IMG/VR virus record: IMGVR_UViG_3300028985_000011
Origin: a virus
Taxonomy: Duplodnaviria > Heunggongvirae > Uroviricota > Caudoviricetes
Length of the DNA stretch: 7,424 bases
Reading direction: 5' to 3' (one strand)
Shown here: one piece after another, positions 1 through 7,424 of the stretch
How the letters are laid out: each line of letters starts with the position of its first letter
How positions within the stretch are numbered: the first letter of the stretch is position 1
Notes under the pieces: model-generated
Told to the model about the DNA's origin: nothing
The model's database searches: none
The model's input: only the letters and a program-made list of their open reading frames with translations
Program-made: the position numbers and the translations under genes

Positions 1-56
1 CCCTGCCATTGCTGGCATTTTTAATCCGTTGGTATGGCGTTAATATGGCTGGCGGG

Positions 57-245
57 TTATCCAGCCGGTATTTCGTTATTCAGGTTCAGCGATACTTTTT
101 TTAACGGGAGGCATTCACCGGGGATTTTTTGTTCGTCCCTTACCTGAATGCAGGATGACTTACTGTCATAAATTCCGGTAATCACATTTTGTGGCTCACC
201 CGTTATAAGAAAAACGGTCATCACCAGTGCAAATGCTGAAGTCAC
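57..245 (-). CDS. ydfD: YdfD-like small protein (62 aa) with N-terminal hydrophobic segment; GTG start overlapping the upstream stop (GTGA)
   Basis: Minus-strand ORF MTSAFALVMTVFLITGEPQNV...; GGAG Shine-Dalgarno 7 nt upstream of GTG at 243-245; hydrophobic N-terminus (FALVMTVFLITG); position immediately after dicB-like gene as in Qin prophage. Alternative ATG start at 219-221. Symbol assigned by synteny and size, not by search. Confidence 0.5.
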   Translation of the reverse strand: MTSAFALVMTVFLITGEPQNVITGIYDSKSSCIQVRDEQKIPGECLPLKKVSLNLNNEIPAG

Positions 246-430
246 TGCTGTTCTCCGATAATACCAAGTTCAAGAAGGGCAATTCTGGAAAGTATGGAAT
301 TATCATTGAGAAGATAAGGTTCATATTTTCTCATCTTAATGGCATCTTCCGTAAACTCCCGGTTACTGAGCAGAACACCAATATCAAAACAACCTTCAGA
401 CGTATTAACGTTTGGTAATAACGTTTCCAT
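242..430 (-). CDS. dicB: DicB-like cell-division inhibitor (62 aa)
   Basis: ATG at 428-430 (minus) with GAGGA Shine-Dalgarno 7 nt upstream; N-terminus METLLPNVNTSEGCF.IGV...FTEDAI matches my recollection of E. coli DicB; C-terminal half looks divergent; lies downstream of DicF-like sRNA. The six-frame track extends this ORF to a GTG at 535, which I consider unlikely. Confidence 0.6.
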   Translation of the reverse strand: METLLPNVNTSEGCFDIGVLLSNREFTEDAIKMRKYEPYLLNDNSILSRIALLELGIIGEQQ

Positions 431-485
431 TATCGCGTCCTCAACAATGAATTTTGTGATGCGGTGCCTGGTGCCTCCAGGTGAC

Positions 486-506
486 GTTAACCAGTTAACA
501 ATTAAC
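486..506. repeat. Three tandem (G/A)TTAAC hexamers at about 8-bp spacing in the dicB-like 5' leader
   Basis: GTTAAC at 486-491 and 494-499, ATTAAC at 501-506; GTTAAC is self-complementary so the cluster can form alternative RNA or DNA hairpins; function unknown. Confidence 0.4.
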
Positions 507-599
507 GCCGGATACAGAGAATCCACCCATAACACTGTTTTTGGTTTTAACTGTTCCGCGTGCGCTCAGCCGCATTCACCACATCACAAAATTCACTTT

Positions 600-642
600 A
601 AAAAGGGCGGCAGAGCAGTCACGGAGTAAAACTGATACCGCC
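600..642 (-). terminator. Rho-independent terminator at the 3' end of the DicF-like RNA
   Basis: On minus strand GGCGG (plus 638-642) ... CCGCC (plus 606-610) followed by C then TTTTT (plus 604-600); inner CAGT/ACTG pairing possible within the loop. Confidence 0.5.
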
Positions 643-657
643 AAACGTCACCAGAAA
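600..657 (-). ncRNA. dicF: DicF-like small regulatory RNA with 3' intrinsic terminator
   Basis: Minus-strand sequence TTTCTGGTGACGTTTGGCGGTATCAGTTTTACTCCGTGACTGCTCTGCCGCCCTTTTT matches my recollection of E. coli DicF; ends in GC stem (plus 638-642 / 606-610) plus U5 tract (plus 600-604); located between the upstream ORFs and dicB-like gene as in Qin. Not verified by covariance model. Confidence 0.55.
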
Positions 658-962
658 ATTGATAACAGAGGGCGTTGCAGCGGGGTTGTCACTTAAGCGT
701 ATGGTCAACCTGACAACCCGGTGTCCTCAGCGGGGTAAGGAATAACCCCGCCATACTTACCGCCGCGCCATTTCGCGGATTGCCACAACCGGAAGCGCAC
801 GATCGAATTAAATTTAACGACGACCTATACAGAGAGACTAACTTCTCCGGGCGCTTTCGTGTTATGCCCTGACTTTTCAGGGATATATCCTTTTCAGTAA
901 ACTGTCAGTGCCGGATTCTTATCCGTGTCCGGCGCACGCACTCTACCTCACCTGTGAATAAA
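658..962 (-). other. Hairpin-rich untranslated region between upstream ORF and DicF-like RNA (probable precursor/processing region)
   Basis: No ORF of convincing size or RBS on either strand; 9-bp stem GGGTTGTCA (683-691) / TGACAACCC (711-719); stem GCGGGGT (730-736) / ACCCCGC (745-751); direct repeat CAGCGGGGT at 678-686 and 728-736; stem CCCTGA (867-872) / TCAGGG (877-882); palindrome GGATATATCC (881-890); stem GCCGGA (910-915) / TCCGGC (928-933). Confidence 0.4.
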
Positions 963-1301
963 TTAATGATTAATTGATATTTTGTTGTTTGATTCAACTT
1001 TCCCATCGGATGTGTGATGCTTTAAATCACAGGAATTAATACTGCTTGCTGTAAAATGATTTTCAAGGGGAGCTATTCGAATCCCTTTCTTTTTCATTAA
1101 CAAGCCAAATCCTTTATTAATGATGTCCATTAATTCCAGAAAGTATTTTTCATGTAAATCCTGGTTATCAGAGAGCTGCTTCTCTTCGTACAGCCCGATA
1201 AAGGCTCGGCGTACGTTACCGGATATATTGTCGATGGTTTCTTTTTCTACGGTACTCAGGTCAAGAGTCGCCAGTTGAGAGCGAACCACATTCGATGCCA
1301 T
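963..1301 (-). CDS. Hypothetical protein, AT-rich 3' half; true start may lie upstream inside the N-run
   Basis: Minus ORF open from the N-run to stop at 963-965 (ATG at 1299-1301 has AGGAA directly abutting, poor spacing; frame stays open upstream to 1319); GC content drops markedly toward 963; no family recognised. Confidence 0.5.
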   Translation of the reverse strand: MASNVVRSQLATLDLSTVEKETIDNISGNVRRAFIGLYEEKQLSDNQDLHEKYFLELMDIINKGFGLLMKKKGIRIAPLENHFTASSINSCDLKHHTSDGKVESNNKISINH

Positions 1302-1319
1302 TTCCTGGAATGGTACTGG

Positions 1320-1373
1320 NNNNNNNNNNNNNNNNNNNNNNNNNNNNNNNNNNNNNNNNNNNNNNNNNNNNNN
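1320..1373. other. Run of 54 undetermined bases (assembly gap or masked sequence)
   Basis: n characters from 1320 to 1373; flanking minus-strand ORFs are in different frames, so gene structure across it is unresolved. Confidence 1.
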
Positions 1374-1503
1374 AGCGACGCGCGCCAGCTTCGGTTTTAA
1401 ACGTTTTGCTTTTGGTATACGTCATGGCGGTGAATGTGCCGTCCTGGTTGGGGAACACACCACATACCAGAGATTCGCTGTTGCCAAGATCGATAGTATC
1501 CAT
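1374..1503 (-). CDS. Hypothetical small protein, first gene of the leftward operon (3' end hidden in N-run)
   Basis: ATG at 1501-1503 (minus) with GAGG Shine-Dalgarno 5 nt upstream; encodes MDTIDLGNSESLVCGVFPNQDGTFTAMTYTKSKTFKTEAGARR...; the track's TTG start at 1608 has no RBS and overlaps the predicted promoter; occupies the position of ydfA-like genes downstream of dicA in Qin. Confidence 0.45.
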
Positions 1504-1579
1504 GCTGACCTCATTACCCCTTAACGCCGGGTAGCGGAACTGTTTGCTGAGAACACCGTGCGGTGTCTTGATGGGTGGT

Positions 1580-1608
1580 AATTTAGTTTTCTCATGAATG
1601 TTGGTCAA
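1580..1608 (-). promoter_or_regulatory. Candidate leftward sigma70 promoter (dicB-operon / PL-like) with embedded operator-like motif
   Basis: On minus strand -35 TTGACC (plus 1603-1608), 17-nt spacer, -10 TAAATT (plus 1580-1585); spacer contains TGAGAAAACT (plus 1585-1594), the same core motif found at 1619-1631 and 2152-2164. Confidence 0.45.
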
Positions 1609-1616
1609 GCATTTTT

Positions 1617-1632
1617 AATGAGAAAACTCAAT
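1617..1632. promoter_or_regulatory. Operator-like near-palindrome AATGAGAAAACTCAAT (left copy)
   Basis: 13-nt identity TGAGAAAACTCAA with the site at 2152-2164; inverted arms TGAG/CTCA around AAAA; 11 bp upstream of the candidate -35. Confidence 0.45.
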
Positions 1633-1640
1633 ATTTAATG

Positions 1641-1672
1641 CAAAATAAAGCCAATACATTGAAATGTAAGGC
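1641..1672 (-). terminator. Possible weak intrinsic terminator downstream of the repressor gene
   Basis: On minus strand AAAGCC-TTACATTTCAATGTATT-GGCTTT hairpin (inner palindrome TACATTGAAATGTA at 1655-1668) followed by TTTATTTT; stem is AT-rich so strength is doubtful. Confidence 0.3.
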
Positions 1673-1692
1673 TTTAAAATTTGTGAAGGGGG

Positions 1693-2100
1693 TTACTGAT
1701 GTTTGTTACGTTTGCGAGCTTCTAGTAGCTCGGTGAATAGGCGATTAAAATTCTCAACGCGGGCACGGAGTTCGCTGATTTGTGCTTGCTGCTCTGATTT
1801 TGGAAGTGCGCGATACAATCGCAACATCTCCAACTCATCTTCCGATAAGTCTAAGGCGCTGTTGAGTGCTACTGGTGGATCTGGTGTTTTATCCTCGTCA
1901 CCAAACAGTATCCAAGTTGGTGAACATTGCAATACCTCAGCCAGGCGATGCAAATTTTGCCCGCGCGGGGCTGTATGGTCGCTTTCCCATAGTGAAATTG
2001 ATGAGCCAGATACGCCAGCGGCTTTGCTTAAATCGTTTTGACTTAAACCAACCTGTTTGCGTCTTTCTCTAATTCGTTGACCTAAAGTTTTCTCGTTCAT
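1693..2100 (-). CDS. dicA: DicA-family HTH (XRE-type) prophage repressor, 135 aa
   Basis: N-terminal HTH (QRIRERRKQVGLSQNDLSKAAGVSGSSISLWE) and the motif LQCSPTWILFGDEDK that I recognise from E. coli DicA (also 135 aa); ATG at 2098-2100 with no obvious Shine-Dalgarno; divergent from a Cro-like gene. Confidence 0.9.
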   Translation of the reverse strand: MNEKTLGQRIRERRKQVGLSQNDLSKAAGVSGSSISLWESDHTAPRGQNLHRLAEVLQCSPTWILFGDEDKTPDPPVALNSALDLSEDELEMLRLYRALPKSEQQAQISELRARVENFNRLFTELLEARKRNKHQ

Positions 2101-2121
2101 ATTTAGATATCTTAATAACCC

Positions 2122-2151
2122 TTGACTTGAGATTCCTTGAATGGTTACTAT
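2122..2151 (+). promoter_or_regulatory. Candidate rightward sigma70 promoter (PR-like) for the dicC-like operon
   Basis: -35 TTGACT (2122-2127), 18-nt spacer, -10 TACTAT (2146-2151); about 27 nt upstream of the dicC-like ATG; CTTGA direct repeats at 2121, 2126, 2136. Confidence 0.5.
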
Positions 2152-2165
2152 TGAGAAAACTCAAC
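2150..2165. promoter_or_regulatory. Operator-like palindrome ATTGAGAAAACTCAAC (right copy)
   Basis: Perfect inverted repeat TTGAG-AAAA-CTCAA (2151-2164) overlapping the -10 and predicted start site of the rightward promoter; 13-nt identity with 1619-1631. Confidence 0.5.
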
Positions 2166-2177
2166 TTTGGAGGGGTG

Positions 2178-2405
2178 ATGTTTAAATCAGACGTAATTAA
2201 TTTTTATGGGACGAAAGCCAAAGTAGCGAAAGCTGCTGGTGTTGATCCATCTGCTGTTTCTCAATGGGGGGAACTGGTTCCTGAAGGTCGCGCGATGCGC
2301 CTGCAAGAGGCATCCGGCGGGGAACTTCAGTACGACCCCAAAGTTTATGACGAATATCGTAAGGCAAAGCGGGCGGGGCGGTTGAACAATGAAAATCACC
2401 CCTGA
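2178..2405 (+). CDS. dicC: DicC/Cro-like small DNA-binding regulator, 76 aa
   Basis: ATG at 2178 preceded by GGAGGGG (2169-2175); product MFKSDVINFYGTKAKVAKAAGVDPSAVSQW...; same length as E. coli DicC and divergent from the dicA-like gene; the upstream extension to 2127 in the track lacks an RBS and overlaps the promoter. Confidence 0.8.
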   Translation: MFKSDVINFYGTKAKVAKAAGVDPSAVSQWGELVPEGRAMRLQEASGGELQYDPKVYDEYRKAKRAGRLNNENHP

Positions 2406-2940
2406 ACAGGTTTGTGAGGCTCTGGATGCCTGGGTATGTCGACCAGGAATGACACAGGAGCAAGCGACGATATTAATCACGGAAGCATTCTGGGCTCTGA
2501 AAGAACGCCCGAACATCGATGTTCAACGCGTCACGTTTAATGATGGCGAGGTTGATCAACGGGCGCTGGGCGTTAACCGGGTGAAGATATTCGAACGCTG
2601 GAAAGCTATCGACACCAGGGATAAGCGGAAAAAATTCACGGCGCTGATTCCGGCAATTATGGAGGCTATCCGAATTAGTGATTTCAGGTTGTATCGTGAG
2701 ATCAGTGATGGAAAAAGCATTACGTACATGATCGCCGGATTAAACAAAGAATATGGCGATGTGGTGGAGTCCGGGCTGCTTTTTGCGGATCCAGCTGTTG
2801 TGGAACGTGAGACTGACGAGCTTATAGAAAAAGCTATTGCTTTCAAGCATGCGTATCGTCAGCAATATCAATATTACTTTGCAGATAAACAAATGTCTGC
2901 CAGGGGTTTGTATGAGTATCGATGCACTACGATGGGCTAA
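2389..2940 (+). CDS. YdaT-like protein (CII-position regulator/toxin family), 183 aa
   Basis: ORF MKITPEQVCEALDAW...; third gene of the rightward operon as in Rac-type racR-ydaS-ydaT arrangements; start overlaps dicC-like stop by 17 nt; family assignment from memory only. Confidence 0.7.
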   Translation: MKITPEQVCEALDAWVCRPGMTQEQATILITEAFWALKERPNIDVQRVTFNDGEVDQRALGVNRVKIFERWKAIDTRDKRKKFTALIPAIMEAIRISDFRLYREISDGKSITYMIAGLNKEYGDVVESGLLFADPAVVERETDELIEKAIAFKHAYRQQYQYYFADKQMSARGLYEYRCTTMG

Positions 2941-3952
2941 AAAGGTGAAAACCGGCAGTTCATCCAGTAAGTCTGTATTGACCTGGCTTGCTGATATGTG
3001 CGGTGCCGATTTGTGTGCATACCCGTCTGTATCTGCACTGGCAGAAGTAACGGAACTAAACAAAAAGACTGTGCAGGACAGCTTACGACACCTGATGGAG
3101 ATTGGGTTAATTGTTGATACCGGTGAGAGAAAAGGCAGAACAAAGCAAATTGTGGTGTACCGACTTATCGGTGTAGAAGAAAGTGTTGCCGAGCCTGAAT
3201 ACACCCAAAAACGGGAGTCTTTAAAGGTGGGTAAAATTGGTGCTGTTAATAAAAACAGTACCGAAAATGGTTATGTTTCAGCACAAAACAGACCCAAAAA
3301 CGGAACTCTTAGCTGCATGGAAAATAACCAAAGACACCCAAATTTTCCATCAAAGACACCCAAAAACGGATCACGGAACCCAAAGGAACCCAAAGATCTA
3401 AACCCCACACATAACGCACGCGAGAGTGCTCCGACCAGTGAGCAGGAAGTTTTGTCGTTACAGGCAGCACCCCTTGTATTCCTGGATGGCCTGAGCGAAC
3501 CCATCGGAAAATTTCCGATGACCGATAGCTGGTATCCGTCACGGGATTTTCGACGACGGGCTGCGTTGTGGGGGATGGCTTTGCCGGAGACAGAATTTAC
3601 ACCTGCTGAACTTGCCGCCTTCCGGGACTACTGGGCAGCGGAGGGGAAAGTGTTTACTCAGATTCAGTGGGAGCAGAAATTCGCCCGTCACGTAAATCAC
3701 GTCAGGGCGCAGGTTAAACCAGTCAGCAAGGGGGTAAACCATGCAGCAGCACCAGGTGGCACCGCATCACGGGCAGTTCAGGAAATTCGGGCAGCACGTG
3801 AGCAGTGGGAACGTGAAAACGGATTTATCAGCGACGGAAACGGTCTGGAAGCTGTGGGAACTCATGGGGGAGGTTTATTCGAACCGCTGGACCCAGAAGA
3901 ACGGGGCCGCACCTTCGAAGCTCTGGATTGCACAGATTGGCGCGATGACTGA
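2912..3952 (+). CDS. Replication initiation protein (lambda-O-position): N-terminal HTH DNA-binding domain, low-complexity linker, C-terminal DnaT-like domain
   Basis: ATG at 2912 with AGGGG 5 nt upstream (track start at 2837 is TTG without RBS); N-terminal LTWLADMCGADLCAYPSVSALAEVTELNKKTVQDSLRHLMEIGLI resembles replication-initiator HTH; C-terminal WYPSRDFRRRAALWGMALPE...FRDYWAAEG resembles DnaT-type domain; iteron-like repeats inside. Confidence 0.8.
   Translation: MSIDALRWAKKVKTGSSSSKSVLTWLADMCGADLCAYPSVSALAEVTELNKKTVQDSLRHLMEIGLIVDTGERKGRTKQIVVYRLIGVEESVAEPEYTQKRESLKVGKIGAVNKNSTENGYVSAQNRPKNGTLSCMENNQRHPNFPSKTPKNGSRNPKEPKDLNPTHNARESAPTSEQEVLSLQAAPLVFLDGLSEPIGKFPMTDSWYPSRDFRRRAALWGMALPETEFTPAELAAFRDYWAAEGKVFTQIQWEQKFARHVNHVRAQVKPVSKGVNHAAAPGGTASRAVQEIRAAREQWERENGFISDGNGLEAVGTHGGGLFEPLDPEERGRTFEALDCTDWRDD
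3290..3396. repeat. Iteron-like repeat array inside the initiator gene (candidate replication origin)
   Basis: Core CCCAAA five times (3293, 3337, 3359, 3379, 3389); 12-mer CCCAAAAACGGA at 3293-3304 and 3359-3370; 14-mer CAAAGACACCCAAA at 3329-3342 and 3351-3364 (22 bp apart); tandem GAACCCAAAG at 3376-3385 and 3386-3395; AT-rich tract 3240-3290 just upstream. Confidence 0.5.
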
Positions 3953-4406
3953 GCAGCAAATCCGACAGGTCTGCCGCCAGTGCATGGACCGCTGCCGGGC
4001 GGGTGAAACATGGCCTCCGGACCTGGCTGAGTTTGTGGCGCTGATTTCAGAAAGCGGGGCCAATCCATTTGGCCTGACGGTGGATGCTGTGATGGAGGAG
4101 TACCGCCGCTGGCGTGATGAGTCCTGGCGATATGACGGAAGCGACAAATATCCGTGGCCTCAGCCTGTGCTGTACCACATCTGCCTCGAAATGCGTACCA
4201 GAGGGATTGAGCGCCAGATGACGCAGGGTGAGTTAAAACGACTTGCGGAACGGCAACTGACGAAATGGGCAAAGCATGTTGGTAACGGGATGAGTGTTCC
4301 GCCAGTGCGACGACAACTGGAAGGGGCGAAACACCCGCAAGGGCCAACGCCAATTGAACGGCTGAAACAGGAATACGAACGCCGGAAGGCAGCTGGTTTT
4401 ATTTGA
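3741..4406 (+). CDS. Lambda-P-like replication protein (helicase loader), 221 aa
   Basis: Strong RBS AAGGGGG (3728-3734) 6 nt before ATG 3741; internal regions MTEQQIRQV, WPPDLAEFVALI, YPWPQPVLYHICLEM align by eye with lambda P; overlaps the 3' end of the initiator gene by 212 nt in another frame (alternative starts GTG 3813 or ATG 3864). Confidence 0.7.
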   Translation: MQQHQVAPHHGQFRKFGQHVSSGNVKTDLSATETVWKLWELMGEVYSNRWTQKNGAAPSKLWIAQIGAMTEQQIRQVCRQCMDRCRAGETWPPDLAEFVALISESGANPFGLTVDAVMEEYRRWRDESWRYDGSDKYPWPQPVLYHICLEMRTRGIERQMTQGELKRLAERQLTKWAKHVGNGMSVPPVRRQLEGAKHPQGPTPIERLKQEYERRKAAGFI

Positions 4407-4439
4407 ATCTGAGAAACGATTTTGTCGGAGGAAATTTTA

Positions 4440-5210
4440 ATGGAAACCGTATTTGACGCACTGAAAGCAATGGGAAAAGCCACATCGGTAGAACTGGCCG
4501 CGCGACTTGATATCAGTCGTGAAGAGGTTCTCAACGAGCTGTGGGAACTCAAAAGAAATGGCGTCGTTGATAAAACTGGTCACACCTGGTTTCTGGCTGG
4601 CGAAGGTGAATCCCGGGTAACCGAAGAGCGGCCAGTAAAATCTGAAGCACAGGATATGCTGACCGGGGAGGTCGAACAAAAAGTTACCGCAGACATGATG
4701 ATTGAGTTTATCGGTCAGGATGGTGCTAAAACGTGTGAGGAACTGGCGGGTAAGTTCGGCGTCAGTACTCGCAAGGTTGCCTCCACGCTGGCGGTGGTAA
4801 CCGCAATGGGGCGGCTGGCACGCGTTAATCAGAACGGTAAATTTCGTTACTGCATGCCGGGCGATAATTTACCAGCAGAGCCGAAAGCCGCGCTGGTAAC
4901 GGAAAGTGATGGTAAGGCCTTTCCTCAGCCAGCAGGTGCTGCGTTACCAGTCCGGGAAGCCGCAACACAGGAAGAAATTAAAACAGAAACTGTGGCGGAC
5001 ATTGTGCAGCCGTTGCCATCGTTTACCGAAACGCAAGCAGATGAGCTGATTTTTCCGTCCCTTCGCAGGGCAAACCTGGCGCTGCGCAGGGCGAAAAGTG
5101 ATGTTCAGAAGTGGGAGCGAGTCTGCGCCGCGCTGCGGGAGCTGAACAAGCACCGGGATATTGTTCGACAGATTACTGATTCTTCCCGCCGTGTTGTATC
5201 GGAAAAGTGA
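4440..5210 (+). CDS. Hypothetical protein with two tandem winged-helix-like segments (phage nin-region family, possibly DUF1627-like)
   Basis: ATG 4440 with GGAGG (4427-4431) 8 nt upstream; the track start at 4422 is TTG; segments [30 protein letters not shown] and [33 protein letters not shown] look like wH/HTH units. Confidence 0.8.
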
Positions 5211-5225
5211 TTGCCGGAGGCGCTT

Positions 5226-5618
5226 ATGGCAAAAGTATTTACACCAGAAGAGCGGGAAGAAGTGAAGGCGCGCATTGTGGAATTCGTGCGCCTGAGCGGA
5301 CGAGAAACTTTTCGACAACTGGCAGATAAAACGGGTGTCAGTAAGACCGCTATTCGTCGTTTATCTGGTGCGCTTGCGGCCAGTGGTGATGTCTGGCTCT
5401 CTGGTTGCGGGGTATTTCCATCAGAGCAGGCGTATCGCGTATGGCGTAAGACACCGGAGAAGGCTGCTGACCCGACACTGATTCGAAAGTTACCTGACGG
5501 AGAAATACGTCGTTACAACAGACGGCAGAACATAATTTGTCGTGAGTGCCGCCAGAGCGAAGTTATGCAGCGTGTGCTGGCGTTCTATCGGGGAAACTTT
5601 CAGGAGGTGATGGAGTGA
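5226..5618 (+). CDS. Hypothetical winged-helix-like protein, 130 aa (paralogous to N-terminal part of the preceding gene)
   Basis: ATG 5226 with GGAGG (5216-5220) 5 nt upstream; segment ETFRQLADKTGVSKTAIRRLSGALAASGDV resembles the wH units of the upstream protein. Confidence 0.8.
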   Translation: MAKVFTPEEREEVKARIVEFVRLSGRETFRQLADKTGVSKTAIRRLSGALAASGDVWLSGCGVFPSEQAYRVWRKTPEKAADPTLIRKLPDGEIRRYNRRQNIICRECRQSEVMQRVLAFYRGNFQEVME

Positions 5619-5911
5619 GGGTCAGAGTTTATATTGCCGGTCCAATGACGGGATATGAAAATTTCAACCGTGAGGCGTTTCACAAGGCGGAAGAGGAACT
5701 GAAACGGGAAGGGCATACCGTCTTAAACCCGGCAGTACTTCCGGACGGGCTGACACAGCCGCACTACATGGATATTTGCATGGCAATGATTCGTTGTGTG
5801 GATGCGATTTACATGCTGAATGGCTGGCAGCGGTCAGCGGGCGCTAAGGCAGAGCTGGCACTGGCGGAGAAACTGGGGCATGCAGTGATTTATCAGGAGG
5901 TGGCTCAATGA
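5615..5911 (+). CDS. Small nucleoside 2-deoxyribosyltransferase-like protein (DUF4406-like), 98 aa
   Basis: GTG start at 5615 overlapping the upstream stop (GTGA) with AGGAGG (5602-5607) 7 nt upstream; motif VYIAGPMTG...NF...F...LNPA...GW..S.GA.AELALA typical of the NDT-like Rossmann family; the track's longer ORF from 5546 overlaps the upstream gene and is not favoured. Confidence 0.75.
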   Translation: MRVRVYIAGPMTGYENFNREAFHKAEEELKREGHTVLNPAVLPDGLTQPHYMDICMAMIRCVDAIYMLNGWQRSAGAKAELALAEKLGHAVIYQEVAQ

Positions 5912-6345
5912 GAGAGGTTAACTATGAGGCGCTTCGTGAGGCAGCACAAAACTATCAGTCGACGCTGGCGTGGTATCAGGCTATCCCGGACAGCCCAAAT
6001 GCTGAACGGGATTGTGATGCGGCTCTTGCTGCGTTTAAGCGTCACATCCGTCATCGGGAAGCGGATATTATCGCTGATTTGCTGGATGGACTGGAAGAAG
6101 CAAAATCACAACTCAAAGAGCAGCGTGAGTATTACGAAGGCGTTATCTCTGATGGGAGCAAGCGTATTGCTGAACTGGAAGCGCGGGAAGTTCAATTACC
6201 GACTCGCTACGACCTTCGATATGGACACCCGATAAATGCAGATGAGCGACAAGTCATGATACCTAAAGAAAATGGCAGTTGGCTTTACCTGATTGACCTA
6301 GAACACGCATTACGCGTCGCTGACATTCGCATCAAAGGAGAGTGA
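5908..6345 (+). CDS. Hypothetical protein, 145 aa, predicted helical/coiled-coil
   Basis: ATG 5908 overlapping the upstream stop (ATGA), AGGAGG (5895-5900) 7 nt upstream; no family recognised. Confidence 0.8.
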   Translation: MREVNYEALREAAQNYQSTLAWYQAIPDSPNAERDCDAALAAFKRHIRHREADIIADLLDGLEEAKSQLKEQREYYEGVISDGSKRIAELEAREVQLPTRYDLRYGHPINADERQVMIPKENGSWLYLIDLEHALRVADIRIKGE

Positions 6346-6346
6346 T

Positions 6347-6610
6347 ATGGCAACTTTGACAAAAAAAGAACAAGCATGGTTGAGCGAATTACAGGACGTT
6401 CTTGATCGCTGCCCATCACCGAAAAAAATTGGTTTTTACACCATTGGCGATAAAAGCATTTACCTGTATGACCTGCGCCGCATGGATGAAATCATGGAGG
6501 CTCTTGATAATCGTTCGTCAATGGATTGGTGTGTTGCTGTTCATGATATGAATGCCGGATTTGATGAAAAGATTTTATTCCCCTCATCAGTTGAAAGTAC
6601 AGCAGGATAA
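6347..6610 (+). CDS. Hypothetical protein, 87 aa
   Basis: ATG 6347 one nt after the upstream stop; GGAG (6337-6340) upstream; no family recognised. Confidence 0.75.
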   Translation: MATLTKKEQAWLSELQDVLDRCPSPKKIGFYTIGDKSIYLYDLRRMDEIMEALDNRSSMDWCVAVHDMNAGFDEKILFPSSVESTAG

Positions 6611-6620
6611 GGACTAACAC

Positions 6621-7382
6621 ATGACCACTATTACCAAAGAGCGACTGCTGACAATCAGGCAGTGGCGCGAAACATACGGACCTGGTAGCAACGTTGTACT
6701 GCCAGCAGAAGAAGCGGAAGAACTGGCACGAATTGCTCTGGCATCGCTGGAAGCAGAGCCGATAGGTTTCCGTTGCAGGCGCAATGATAACCTTGGTGAT
6801 TGGAGTTACGTATATCATCGAGAGCCAGATGATTTTGAGCGCAAACATTTAGTGATAGAGGGCATTTACGCCGCCCCTCCAGCACCGGTAGTGCCTGAAG
6901 AAGCAACTCCGGAAAACGTAGAAATGCTCTCTGGCTATGTTTCAACGTACAAATTAACCGATAGCGAGCGCGATATTGCTGCCGAAATATGGAACGCCTG
7001 CCGCGCCGCCATGCTTCAGTCCGGAAACTTTCGGGAAAACAAGAATTCGTCAACCAATAATTTTCGGGAAATCGCGGAAACGTCAACCAACTATCCGGCA
7101 ATTCCTAGTGAGGTGTTGTCCGCAATCCTGAAGGTTGCCAGGATTCGTGCCGATTTCGATGATTTTGACGGTGACAGGCGAGGTATCGGTGATTGTCTGG
7201 ATGAGGCTGAGCAAGAGCTTATCGTTACCATTAACAAATATGCCAGTCAGTTGGCAGCAGAACCTATAGCGCCTAATGACGTTCGAGAGCAGACAGCCAT
7301 TCCACAAGTTCCGGTAACTCCGGATGGTTGGATAAGCTGTAGTGAGCGAATGCCGGACGACAGGCAGGAGGTGAATCAATGA
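6621..7382 (+). CDS. Hypothetical protein, 253 aa, with internal 11-residue tandem repeat
   Basis: ATG 6621 with AGGA 7 nt upstream; contains DNA-level tandem repeat at 7028-7090; C-terminal DGWISCSERMPDD; no family assigned with confidence. Confidence 0.8.
   Translation: MTTITKERLLTIRQWRETYGPGSNVVLPAEEAEELARIALASLEAEPIGFRCRRNDNLGDWSYVYHREPDDFERKHLVIEGIYAAPPAPVVPEEATPENVEMLSGYVSTYKLTDSERDIAAEIWNACRAAMLQSGNFRENKNSSTNNFREIAETSTNYPAIPSEVLSAILKVARIRADFDDFDGDRRGIGDCLDEAEQELIVTINKYASQLAAEPIAPNDVREQTAIPQVPVTPDGWISCSERMPDDRQEVNQ
7028..7090. repeat. Imperfect 30-bp tandem direct repeat (33-bp period) inside the 253-aa gene
   Basis: CTTTCGGGAAAACAAGAATTCGTCAACCAA (7028-7057) versus TTTTCGGGAAATCGCGGAAACGTCAACCAA (7061-7090), about 22 of 30 identical; (C)GGAAA-type motif occurs four times in 7022-7080. 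Confidence 0.6.
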
Positions 7383-7424
7383 GCTGGCCTGATGCAATCG
7401 TAACTCTGGGGGTGGTCTTCGCAG
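7379..7424 (+). CDS. 5' end of a further gene (partial, runs off the window); N-terminus hydrophobic
   Basis: ATG 7379 overlapping upstream stop (ATGA) with AGGAGG (7366-7371) 7 nt upstream; begins MSWPDAIVTLGVVFA. Confidence 0.5.
   Translation, partial: MSWPDAIVTLGVVFA

What the first reader, a model, noticed from the sequence alone, without database searches (positions are those of the whole stretch)
600..962. DicF-like sRNA preceded by a 300-nt hairpin-rich untranslated precursor region
The minus strand at 600-657 carries a sequence I recognise as DicF-like, ending in a GC stem plus U5 terminator. Upstream of it, about 300 nt contain no credible ORF but several strong stems and a CAGCGGGGT direct repeat, consistent with a processed polycistronic precursor (RNase III/RNase E sites). 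DicF is known to repress ftsZ and metabolic mRNAs, so an intact copy in an apparently complete prophage is functionally relevant.
Basis: partly seen in the sequence, partly recalled or inferred. Interest (0 to 1): 0.55.

Follow-up and report, generated by a model that had tools for sequence, protein, structure and literature searches.

The report
DicF sRNA with conserved structured leader
This is a textbook copy of the prophage small RNA DicF and its known processed precursor; the one new point is that 118 nt of the precursor form a conserved, pseudoknotted RNA domain that other phages, including P1, also carry in front of different small-RNA cassettes.

Summary
Rfam DicF (RF00039) matches window 656..605 (minus strand) end to end at 76.7 bits (cut-off 48), followed by U5 at 604..600. 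The sequence is identical to E. coli K-12 DicF. It lies in a dicA/dicC-type lambdoid prophage early-left operon, upstream of dicB (430..242).

The roughly 300-nt upstream stretch is about 91% identical to the K-12 ydfC-dicF spacer and occurs in 4556 of 5426 complete E. coli genomes. In K-12, RNase III yields a 190-nt species and RNase E the 53-nt DicF.

The stretch has two modules:
- An RNase III-type long stem (873..842 pairing with 808..782) with a variable apex.
- A 118-nt domain (790..673), starting at the inferred 5' end of the 190-nt species, that folds as a four-way junction plus pseudoknot.

The domain is supported by covariation across 98 distinct sequences. It also occurs without DicF in cdtI/Stx2c-type, Rac-like, Salmonella F1055 and P1/P7 phages. 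Each copy checked is followed by a different seed-plus-terminator cassette.

The domain is not in Rfam and shows no detectable relation to HK022 put RNA. Its function is inferred only. I found no prior description in the searchable literature.

The parts
600..656 (-). DicF sRNA: single-stranded 5' seed, interrupted terminator hairpin, U5 tail at 604..600. In K-12 numbering the 53-nt RNA starts one U further 5', at 657.
   Evidence: RF00039 at 76.7 bits against GA 48, full length. Identical to the K-12 row in alignment A1. Hairpin seen in the MFE fold.
657..672 (-). Linker between the domain and DicF. GUUAUCA can pair with the DicF seed (UGGUGAC). The AAUUUU loop between them is the expected RNase E cleavage site that creates the DicF 5' end.
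   Evidence: MFE of the 191-nt RNA. RNase E dependence is known for K-12. The seed-masking role is inference.
673..790 (-). 118-nt conserved structured domain. P1: 789..782 with 681..674. Hairpin B: 779..775 with 768..763. P2: 762..759 with 722..719. Variable hairpin C: 749..746 with 735..732. Helix D: 717..708 with 698..685. Pseudoknot: GUAUGG 756..751 with CCAUAC 704..699.
   Evidence: Covariance model R1 scores 142 bits here and 92-141 bits in K-12 Qin, cdtI, 2H10, F1055, pPE4, P7 and P1. Pair counts: 37 pairs, 97.4% of cells paired, 10 pairs changed on both sides against 5.2 +/- 1.4 in shuffles. Coordinates.
782..873 (-). RNase III-type long imperfect stem-loop: 5' arm 873..842, 3' arm 808..782, variable apical cassette 841..809. 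The 3' arm overlaps the 5' strand of P1. The inferred 5' end of the 190-nt species (about 790) lies inside it.
   Evidence: Consensus fold and pair counts: helices 7 and 8, 22 pairs, 95-99.5% paired, only one-sided changes. Per-variant folds of -28.8 (this copy) to -39 kcal/mol. The 190-nt RNase III product is published for K-12.
874..962 (-). 3' untranslated tail of the upstream ORF with two local hairpins (about 930..909 and 884..867). Shared only with Qin-type relatives. Mosaic junctions lie at about 956, 938, 927 and 877-882.
   Evidence: BLAST breakpoints, alignment A1, fold. No independent support for a function.
398..607 (-). dicF-dicB spacer (dicB leader). A long-range duplex of about 27 bp joins 604..577 with about 470..443 and includes the dicB Shine-Dalgarno (GAGG). 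The expected 3' end of the 72-nt DicF form (about 585) falls inside it. The region resembles STnc100.
   Evidence: MFE -65.8 kcal/mol, z = -5.0. RF02076 STnc100 at 38.7 bits, below GA 47, E about 1e-6. The 72-nt RNase III product is published.
242..430 (-). dicB, cell-division inhibitor, 62 aa.
   Evidence: Pfam DicB PF05358 at 129.5 bits. Annotated as dicB in AR_0013.
963..1301 (-). Upstream ORF (112 aa, unknown function) in the position held by ydfB/ydfC in K-12.
   Evidence: ORF list. phrog_6937, E 5e-68, no Pfam match. Homology to K-12 begins only at 956, just after its stop codon.
1580..1608 (-). Sigma-70-like promoter match (TTGACC, 17 nt, TAAATT) where dicBp is expected, between the dicA-like gene and the DUF1391 gene.
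   Evidence: Consensus scan only; context. Not evidence of function.

Best explanation
Window 962..600 (minus strand) is the dicF segment of a dicBF-type early-left operon in a lambdoid prophage.

Proposed pathway:
1. Transcription starts at a DicA-repressed, PL-like promoter near 1580-1608. It runs through a DUF1391 (ydfA-like) gene and a 112-aa ORF into the untranslated leader.
2. The leader first folds into a long imperfect duplex (873..842 with 808..782). RNase III cuts at about 790. This frees GGUUGUGGC to close helix P1 with GCUGCAAC (681..674).
3. The product is a compact 118-nt four-way-junction and pseudoknot domain carrying DicF at its 3' end. This is the 190-nt species.
4. Transcription ends mostly at the DicF hairpin and U5.
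5. RNase E cuts the A/U-rich loop at 657/656 and releases the 53-nt, Hfq-dependent DicF. DicF represses ftsZ, xylR, pykA and manX by base pairing.
6. Read-through transcripts continue into dicB. RNase III processes them in a second duplex (604..577 with about 470..443).

Shown directly here: the identity of DicF, the homology to K-12, the structures and the covariation. Taken from published K-12 work: the dependence on RNase III and RNase E, the 190-, 72- and 53-nt species, and the targets.

Inferred, at roughly 45% confidence: the conserved domain is a folding, 5'-end-protection and processing chassis for the sRNA, and the DicF seed is masked until RNase E cuts.
For: Identity and context:
- RF00039 hit at 76.7 bits. 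The sequence is identical to K-12 DicF.
- Operon context: a dicA-like HTH gene, a cro-like gene, DUF1391, dicB and DUF1482.
- The leader is about 91% identical to the K-12 ydfC-dicF spacer. It is found in 4556 of 5426 E. coli genomes.

Published K-12 biogenesis:
- RNase III gives the 190-nt species, RNase E gives the 53-nt DicF, and there is no internal promoter.
- A 72-nt form arises by RNase III cleavage of read-through RNA; targets are established.

Structure:
- The long stem is kept in 95-99.5% of cells across 89 sequences.
- 190 nt measured back from the terminator lands at about 790, which is exactly the first position of the conserved domain.
- Domain covariation: 10 pairs changed on both sides, 66 such cells against 10.3 +/- 2.7 in shuffles, and far lower values in the slid controls. 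P1 and the pseudoknot were not part of the model that made the alignment.
- Every domain copy checked is followed within about 45-110 nt by a hairpin and U-run.
Against: - No transcript data exist for this copy.
- The upper part of the RNase III stem is weaker here than in K-12 (-28.8 against about -35.6 kcal/mol, with one mismatch and one wobble), so cleavage efficiency may differ.
- The long stem shows only one-sided changes and no compensatory ones.
- Invariant loop sequences plus a pseudoknot conserved from lambdoid phages to P1 are more than simple 5'-end protection would seem to need. This hints at a specific partner that the explanation does not name.
- Sampling was partly anchored on exact patterns within DicF and within the helix D loop, which inflates apparent conservation near those anchors.
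Confidence: 0.9

Rival explanations
1. The 118-nt domain is a cis-acting transcription-control RNA. It would bind RNA polymerase, a protein or a small ligand, in the manner of a put-like antiterminator or a riboswitch-like attenuator. It would set how often RNA polymerase stops at the sRNA terminator and how often it reads through into dicB, kil, exo or the P1 ban operon. The short RNA would then be partly a by-product of that decision.
For: - The architecture resembles an aptamer plus expression platform: a conserved multi-helix pseudoknotted domain, directly followed in all copies checked by a variable segment ending in an intrinsic terminator, with genes downstream.
- It is always in an early, repressor-controlled operon. 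In P1 it begins about 40 nt after the -10 of the C1-controlled Pban.
- No N-like protein or boxA was found in the window.
- Short motifs (GCGCGGCGG, GUCAGGUUGAC) recall HK022 putL/putR.
Against: - Model R1 finds nothing in the HK022 put regions at E <= 10 with filters off.
- There is only one copy in the window and none on the PR side.
- I found no consistent antiterminator pairing with the terminator's 5' arm across cassette types (checked by eye and 74 sequences).
- In Qin-type operons the domain lies about 800-900 nt from the inferred promoter, after two genes.
- K-12 Northern blots detected no full-length read-through species.
Confidence: 0.2
2. DicF here is an independent sRNA gene with its own promoter inside the 300-nt region, and the upstream hairpins are irrelevant.
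For: An older report of a second promoter upstream of dicB is mentioned in the literature.
Against: - No sigma-70-like match on the minus strand between 657 and 962.
- Primer extension and RT-PCR in K-12 indicate no internal promoter and a continuous ydfA-dicF transcript.
- The upstream sequence is conserved as RNA structure, with covariation.
Confidence: 0.04
3. The conservation of 673-790 reflects a protein-coding ORF or a DNA-level site rather than an RNA structure. Several phage records annotate opposite-strand hypothetical genes across it.
For: Hypothetical CDSs on the opposite strand overlap the element in the cdtI, 2H10, F1055 and pPE4 records.
Against: - No ORF of 30 aa or more spans the domain on either strand of the window.
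- Hairpin C varies by indels that are not multiples of three, and by compensatory stem changes.
- Changes on both sides keep base pairs in five helices, including a pseudoknot.
Confidence: 0.03

Closest known systems
[quoted passage not shown]
   Same: - The sRNA sequence is identical.
- The leader is about 91% identical, with the same long RNase III-type stem, the same domain, and the same dicF-dicB spacer and dicB.
- The regulatory context is the same (dicA/dicC type).
   Different: - ydfB/ydfC are replaced by a 112-aa ORF of unknown function (phrog_6937).
- The apex of the RNase III stem is a different cassette.
- Two substitutions weaken the upper stem.
- Hairpin C gains one base pair.
- The host element is a nearly complete lambda-like prophage rather than the Qin remnant, as judged from relative AR_0013.
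Phage P1 'dicF-like region' downstream of Pban (GenBank AF234172 feature 68791-68892); also P7
   Same: - It carries the same 118-nt domain: 92.6 bits in P1 and 102.5 in P7.
- Compensatory changes are seen in helix D, hairpin C, P2 (P7) and the pseudoknot (P1), followed by an intrinsic terminator.
- It sits in a repressor-controlled early operon.
   Different: - The 3' cassette (..GCUUCCAGUUUGCCCAUCUUCGGGUGGGCGUUUUUU) is unrelated to DicF and is not hit by RF00039.
- The domain starts about 40 nt after the promoter's -10, and no RNase III stem precedes it.
- Helix P1 is only partly kept in the alignment.
HK022 putL/putR antitermination RNAs
   Same: Both are phage-encoded structured RNAs in early operons upstream of terminators, and a few short motifs are shared.
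   Different: - No covariance-model match.
- put is about 70 nt with two stems; this domain is 118 nt with a four-way junction and a pseudoknot.
- put occurs as a left and right pair; here there is a single copy.
3'-UTR- or operon-derived Hfq sRNAs released by RNase E (CpxQ, SroC, SdhX class)
   Same: Biogenesis by termination plus RNase E cleavage from an mRNA. DicF is the founding example.
   Different: Those sRNAs have no reported conserved, pseudoknotted 5' domain shared between loci with different seeds.
STnc100 (RF02076) / PasD prophage sRNAs
   Same: The dicF-dicB spacer (607..398) aligns along the whole STnc100 model with E about 1e-6. STnc100 is reported to be common in Stx-phage-like prophages.
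   Different: The score of 38.7 is below the gathering score of 47. The match lies outside the finding and overlaps the first 33 nt of the dicB coding sequence.

Membership tests
DicF sRNA (Rfam RF00039) | Covariance-model score at or above the curated gathering score, over the full length | tested here: met
   76.7 bits against GA 48, model positions 1-52 of 52, E 4e-16.
DicF sRNA (Rfam RF00039) | Single-stranded 5' seed identical or near-identical to the K-12 sequence that pairs with ftsZ, xylR, pykA and manX | tested here: met
   Window 656..600 is identical to the K-12-lineage row L002 in A1. Of 127 collected DicF copies, 71 share this exact 60-mer. Target pairing itself is taken from the literature.
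DicF sRNA (Rfam RF00039) | Rho-independent terminator (hairpin plus U-run) forming the 3' end | tested here: met
   GGCGGUA..CUGCCGCC stem followed by U5 at 604..600. The simple scanner missed it.
DicF sRNA (Rfam RF00039) | Location in a dicA/dicC-controlled operon upstream of dicB in a lambdoid prophage | tested here: met
   dicB Pfam match at 129.5 bits at 430..245; DUF1391, DUF1482, HTH and cro-like genes around it.
DicF sRNA (Rfam RF00039) | Matured by RNase III (190-nt species) and RNase E (53-nt species); binds Hfq; represses ftsZ | not testable with these tools
   Only the structural prerequisites are seen here. The experiments are on K-12.
HK022 put antitermination RNA | Sequence and structure similarity to putL/putR | tested here: not met
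   Model R1 gives no match in HK022 24000-31000 at E <= 10 with filters off. Only short motifs are shared.
HK022 put antitermination RNA | Copies downstream of both early promoters (PL and PR) | tested here: not met
   There is a single copy in the window, on the PL-like side only.
HK022 put antitermination RNA | Makes RNA polymerase termination-resistant in cis without protein factors | not testable with these tools
   This needs in vitro transcription or reporter assays.
Lambda-type nut site (boxA plus boxB with an N protein) | boxA consensus and an N-like gene in the PL-type operon | tested here: not met
   No boxA-like match within 600-962. No N-like Pfam or PHROG match for the two ORFs tested between the inferred promoter and the leader (window 1608..1264 Pfam only; 1301..966 both) or for dicB and DUF1482 (Pfam). 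The hairpin CCCUGAAAAGUCAGGG at 884..867 only superficially recalls boxB.
Terminator-type riboswitch or attenuator | Conserved structured domain immediately upstream of an intrinsic terminator | tested here: met
   Domain covariation. A terminator follows within about 45-110 nt in all copies inspected.
Terminator-type riboswitch or attenuator | Conserved alternative (antiterminator) pairing that excludes the terminator | tested here: inconclusive
   Only 4-6 bp of possible pairing, inconsistent between cassette types, found by inspecting and 74 sequences. No formal test was run.
STnc100 (RF02076) | Score at or above the gathering score | tested here: not met
   38.7 bits against GA 47, although full length with E about 1e-6. 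It lies at 607..398, beside the finding.
tRNA or tRNA-like gene | Detected as a cloverleaf by ARAGORN or the Rfam tRNA model | tested here: not met
   ARAGORN finds 0 genes in the window. There is no tRNA hit.

The most novel reading that the evidence does not exclude
The 118-nt four-way-junction and pseudoknot RNA at 790..673 is an autonomous phage RNA module for which I found no prior description. It is shared by Qin-type, cdtI/Stx2c-type and Rac-like lambdoid phages, Salmonella phage F1055 and P1/P7, and serves as a common chassis for interchangeable seed-plus-terminator sRNA cassettes. DicF would then be only the best-known member of a larger family. In the most novel reading, the domain binds a specific partner (RNA polymerase, a protein or a ligand) and decides between ending transcription as an sRNA and reading through into division inhibitors (dicB, kil) and other early genes.
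Probability: 0.2. Interest if true: 0.75.

Novelty: already known. Interest (0 to 1): 0.33.

Why it matters
As flagged, the finding is a correct rediscovery. DicF is the oldest known operon-derived sRNA, and this copy should repress ftsZ and metabolic mRNAs exactly as in K-12 whenever the prophage's DicA-type repressor is relieved. That alone is routine annotation, although RefSeq/PGAP records do not annotate dicF.

The added value is the anatomy of the leader:
- The stable 190-nt intermediate of K-12 corresponds exactly to a conserved pseudoknotted domain plus DicF.
- The same domain precedes unrelated sRNA cassettes in other temperate phages, including P1's ban operon leader.

If confirmed, this recasts DicF as one member of a modular family. 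The cdtI-type cassette alone is present in 1600 of 5426 E. coli genomes. It also gives concrete mutations (P1, pseudoknot) for testing why DicF is made through a long intermediate and how dicB is expressed past the DicF terminator.

Tried and rejected
- **put-like RNA.** I fetched the HK022 putL/putR regions and searched them with model R1, filters off. There was no match, so homology is rejected, though not analogy.
- **nut site or N protein.** No boxA, and no N-like Pfam or PHROG hit.
- **tRNA-like cloverleaf.** ARAGORN and Rfam were negative.
- **Internal promoter.** None found on the minus strand in 657-962.
- **Coding potential of the leader.** Rejected on frame-breaking indels and the absence of any spanning ORF.
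- **Second Rfam family in the leader.** At E <= 10 only DicF appears; the STnc100-like match lies downstream.
- **Whole-region consensus fold.** The first attempt broke the DicF hairpin through spurious long-range pairs. I replaced it with segment-wise folds.
- **Genome contigs pattern scan.** Most hits were chance matches in unrelated MAGs, about as many as expected for 18 specified bases. Only Escherichia/Shigella hits and a few likely mis-binned contigs were real.
- **AR_0013 as the source of the window.** This assumption was wrong. Segments 1320-1373 and 6343-7424 differ, and no complete E. coli genome covers more than 85%.
- **Domain copy in K-12 Rac.** None found.
- **Lobocka et al. 2004 (P1 genome paper).** Not held in the library, so the 'dicF-like region' is known to me only from the GenBank feature.
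- **Prior descriptions of the domain.** Literature searches found nothing.

Full report
**What is there**

Reading the minus strand of 400-1300 and scanning the whole window against Rfam gives one match at gathering threshold. It is DicF (RF00039) at 656..605: 76.7 bits against a cut-off of 48, covering all 52 model positions, followed by TTTTT at 604..600. The sequence is identical to the K-12-lineage copy (L002 row). Of 127 DicF copies collected from other genomes and viral contigs, 71 share the same 60-mer.

**Context**

- The best match among complete E. coli genomes is a prophage of strain AR_0013 next to tRNA-Ser/mtfA.
- It is 100% identical over window 1-1319 and 99.9% over 1374-6342. 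Segments 1320-1373 and 6343-7424 differ, and no complete genome covers more than 85%. The source is therefore a mosaic relative of that prophage.
- Gene order on the minus strand: dicA-like HTH gene (2100..1693), a promoter-like site at 1608..1580, a DUF1391/ydfA-like ORF, a 112-aa ORF (1301..963, phrog_6937), the untranslated leader, DicF, a 170-nt spacer, dicB (430..242, Pfam 129.5 bits) and a DUF1482/ydfD-like gene.
- A cro-like gene, ydaT and replication genes run the other way.
- The AR_0013 relative has a full lambda-like head, tail and lysis set, a Q-type antiterminator, rem and hokD, but a frameshifted integrase.

**The leader is the known K-12 precursor**

A 451-nt query around the finding matches 4556 of 5426 complete E. 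coli genomes, with a median of 2 places per genome. The K-12 Qin ydfC-dicF spacer matches window 956..560 at 91.5%. Homology therefore starts just after the stop codon of the upstream ORF. The leader travels with dicF, not with the upstream gene. Nested left junctions lie at about 956, 938, 927, 877-882, 866 and 777.

Published K-12 results:
- DicF comes from the dicBp polycistronic RNA.
- RNase III makes a 190-nt species and RNase E makes the 53-nt RNA.
- No internal promoter exists.
- Termination gives the 53-nt 3' end, and RNase III cleavage of read-through RNA gives a 72-nt form.
- Targets are ftsZ, xylR, pykA, manX and, in EHEC, pchA.

**Module 1: an RNase III-type stem**

Segment-wise consensus folding of 89 distinct homologues (alignment A1) gives a long imperfect duplex, 873..842 pairing with 808..782. 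Its 22 core pairs are kept in 95-99.5% of cells, but only through invariance or one-sided changes. Covariation therefore neither supports nor contradicts it. The apex (841..809) is a swappable cassette with several unrelated versions. This copy is weaker at the top, at -28.8 kcal/mol against about -35.6 for K-12. Measuring 190 nt back from the terminator places the RNase III-generated 5' end at about 790, inside the 3' arm.

**Module 2: a conserved structured domain**

A sensitive BLAST of the leader against phage genomes showed that many phages match only window 789..666, without DicF:
- cdtI and the Stx2c phages
- 2H10
- Salmonella phage F1055
- a Rac-like phage deposited as Actinobacillus pPE4
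- P1, P7 and their relatives, at 77-81% identity

In each the element lies in the early, repressor-controlled operon. It comes after cI or dicA in the lambdoid phages, and about 40 nt after the -10 of the C1-controlled Pban in P1. GenBank labels an overlapping P1 segment, which starts partway through the element and runs on to the downstream terminator, a 'dicF-like region'.

A covariance model built from 29 diverse copies (R1) scores 142 bits at window 790..673 and 92-141 bits in those phages.

On the model-derived alignment of 98 distinct sequences the structure is:
- closing helix P1 (789..782 with 681..674)
- hairpin B
- stem P2 topped by a variable hairpin C
- helix D
- a pseudoknot, GUAUGG (756..751) pairing with CCAUAC (704..699)

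Pair statistics:

| Measure | Observed | Shuffled control |
|---|---|---|
| Pairs in the structure | 37 | n/a |
| Cells paired | 97.4% | 95.1% |
| Pairs changed on both sides | 10 | 5.2 +/- 1.4 (1 of 500 as high) |
| Cells changed on both sides | 66 | 10.3 +/- 2.7 (0 of 500 as high) |
| Pairs changed on both sides, slid registers | n/a | 0-4 |

P1 and the pseudoknot were not in the model that made the alignment, so their support is not circular.

Caveats: many sequences were collected through exact patterns anchored in DicF or in the helix D loop. This inflates conservation near those anchors. Almost all sequences come from Escherichia-associated elements.

**How the two modules connect**

The 5' strand of P1 (GUUGUGGC, 789..782) is also the end of the 3' arm of the RNase III stem, so the two structures exclude each other. 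The long stem is transcribed first. Cutting it at about 790 would free the strand to close the four-way junction. The domain starts exactly where the 190-nt species should start.

In the MFE of the 191-nt RNA (-73.6 kcal/mol, z = -2.84) the domain forms. The DicF seed UGGUGAC pairs with GUUAUCA in the linker, across an AAUUUU loop. This loop is the expected RNase E site. The DicF hairpin is intact. I infer that the 190-nt form is a 5'-protected, seed-masked precursor that RNase E activates. This step is not shown.

**A modular family**

Downstream of helix D and P1 the sequence differs by type. I counted at least ten seed-plus-terminator cassettes: DicF, DicF with alternative hairpins, cdtI type, Rac/pPE4 type, P1 type, F1055 type and others. 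Every copy inspected has a hairpin and U-run within about 45-110 nt. Rfam DicF does not hit the P1, cdtI or pPE4 cassettes. The cdtI-type cassette occurs in 1600 of 5426 E. coli genomes. Several types share the same downstream spacer, so the variable part is bracketed by conserved flanks.

**Comparison with known systems**

- HK022 put RNA was the obvious analogue: a phage RNA in early operons ahead of terminators. R1 finds nothing in the put regions at E <= 10, there is no second copy on the PR side, and the architecture differs.
- No boxA and no N-like protein were found.
- No tRNA-like call.
- No other Rfam family matches the leader at E <= 10.
- The layout, a conserved domain followed by a variable terminator and then genes, resembles a riboswitch or attenuator. 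I found no consistent antiterminator pairing.
- The domain's function remains open. I rate a processing, stability and folding chassis as most likely (about 45%). A cis-acting transcription-control role comes next (about 20%).

**Downstream of DicF**

The dicF-dicB spacer folds into a long-range duplex of about 27 bp, 604..577 pairing with about 470..443, with z = -5.0. It contains the position expected for the 72-nt 3' end (about 585) and pairs the U-tract region with the dicB Shine-Dalgarno. The same stretch aligns along the whole STnc100 model at 38.7 bits, below the cut-off of 47.

**Verdict**

The finding is real and correctly interpreted, but DicF and its RNase III/RNase E precursor are already known, and this copy is one of thousands. 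The conserved pseudoknotted 5' domain and its use by other phage sRNA cassettes are the only elements that may be new. I found no description in the searchable literature, but I could not read the two most relevant older papers.

Noticed in passing
window 398-607 (minus strand): The dicF-dicB spacer aligns along the full STnc100 model (RF02076) at 38.7 bits, below GA 47, with E about 1e-6. It folds with z = -5.0 into a long-range duplex of about 27 bp (604..577 with about 470..443). The duplex pairs the DicF U-tract region with the dicB Shine-Dalgarno and contains the expected RNase III site of the 72-nt DicF form.
   Followed up: partly
window 1320-1373 and ORF 1264-1608 (minus strand): A 54-nt segment differs from the otherwise identical AR_0013 prophage. 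Here the DUF1391 (ydfA-like) reading frame runs on as a 115-aa ORF that overlaps the start of the next ORF, instead of ending as a 50-aa gene.
   Followed up: partly
window 6343-7424: This end of the window has no match in the AR_0013 prophage, and no complete E. coli genome covers more than 85% of the window. There is a mosaic junction at about 6342.
   Followed up: no
L020:2573-2944 and L045:1558-1929: Natural variants lack the whole interior and 3' arm of the RNase III stem. The deletion joins ..CAUAA directly to CGCGAAAUGG, apparently between two CGCGAAA direct repeats (one in the 5' arm of the stem, one in hairpin B). DicF and most of the domain are retained. These are natural test cases for RNase III-independent maturation.
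   Followed up: no
L164 (PP818812.1 'Actinobacillus phage vB_Apl-pPE4') 1991-2330: A phage deposited with an Actinobacillus host carries E. coli Rac-like early genes (dicA, ydaT, kil, recE) and the domain. Its seed-plus-terminator cassette appears to begin a second, tandem copy about 25 nt after the first terminator. The host assignment looks doubtful.
   Followed up: no
L015 (E. albertii), L045, L145; L200, L203: These are DicF variants that keep the 5' seed but carry entirely different terminator hairpins (GGCGGCAUCUGUUUGCCCAUGAACUGAUGUCCGCC or CGGCGGAAAUGGAUAUCCGCC). This shows exchange or turnover of the hairpin independently of the seed.
   Followed up: partly
L024 (Veillonella parvula MAG JAGZPX010000007.1), L028 (soil 'Proteobacteria' MAG): Contigs binned to unrelated organisms carry E. 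coli-type dicF loci with the full leader. These are most likely binning or contamination artefacts.
   Followed up: no
L160 (phage cdtI) 40-228, minus strand: Rfam gathering-level hits to C4 antisense RNA (68.4 bits) and isrK (60 bits) sit next to the antirepressor gene. This is a P22/P1-type immI module in the same phage that carries the domain.
   Followed up: no
window 486-510 (minus strand): A near-perfect palindrome, GTTAATTGTTAACTGGTTAAC, lies inside the dicB leader. It forms a 10-bp hairpin in the predicted fold.
   Followed up: no
RefSeq records NZ_CP032204.1 and NZ_CP026350.1: PGAP annotation lists no feature for dicF in either the AR_0013 prophage or a K-12-lineage genome. The sRNA and its leader appear as unannotated intergenic DNA.
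   Followed up: no
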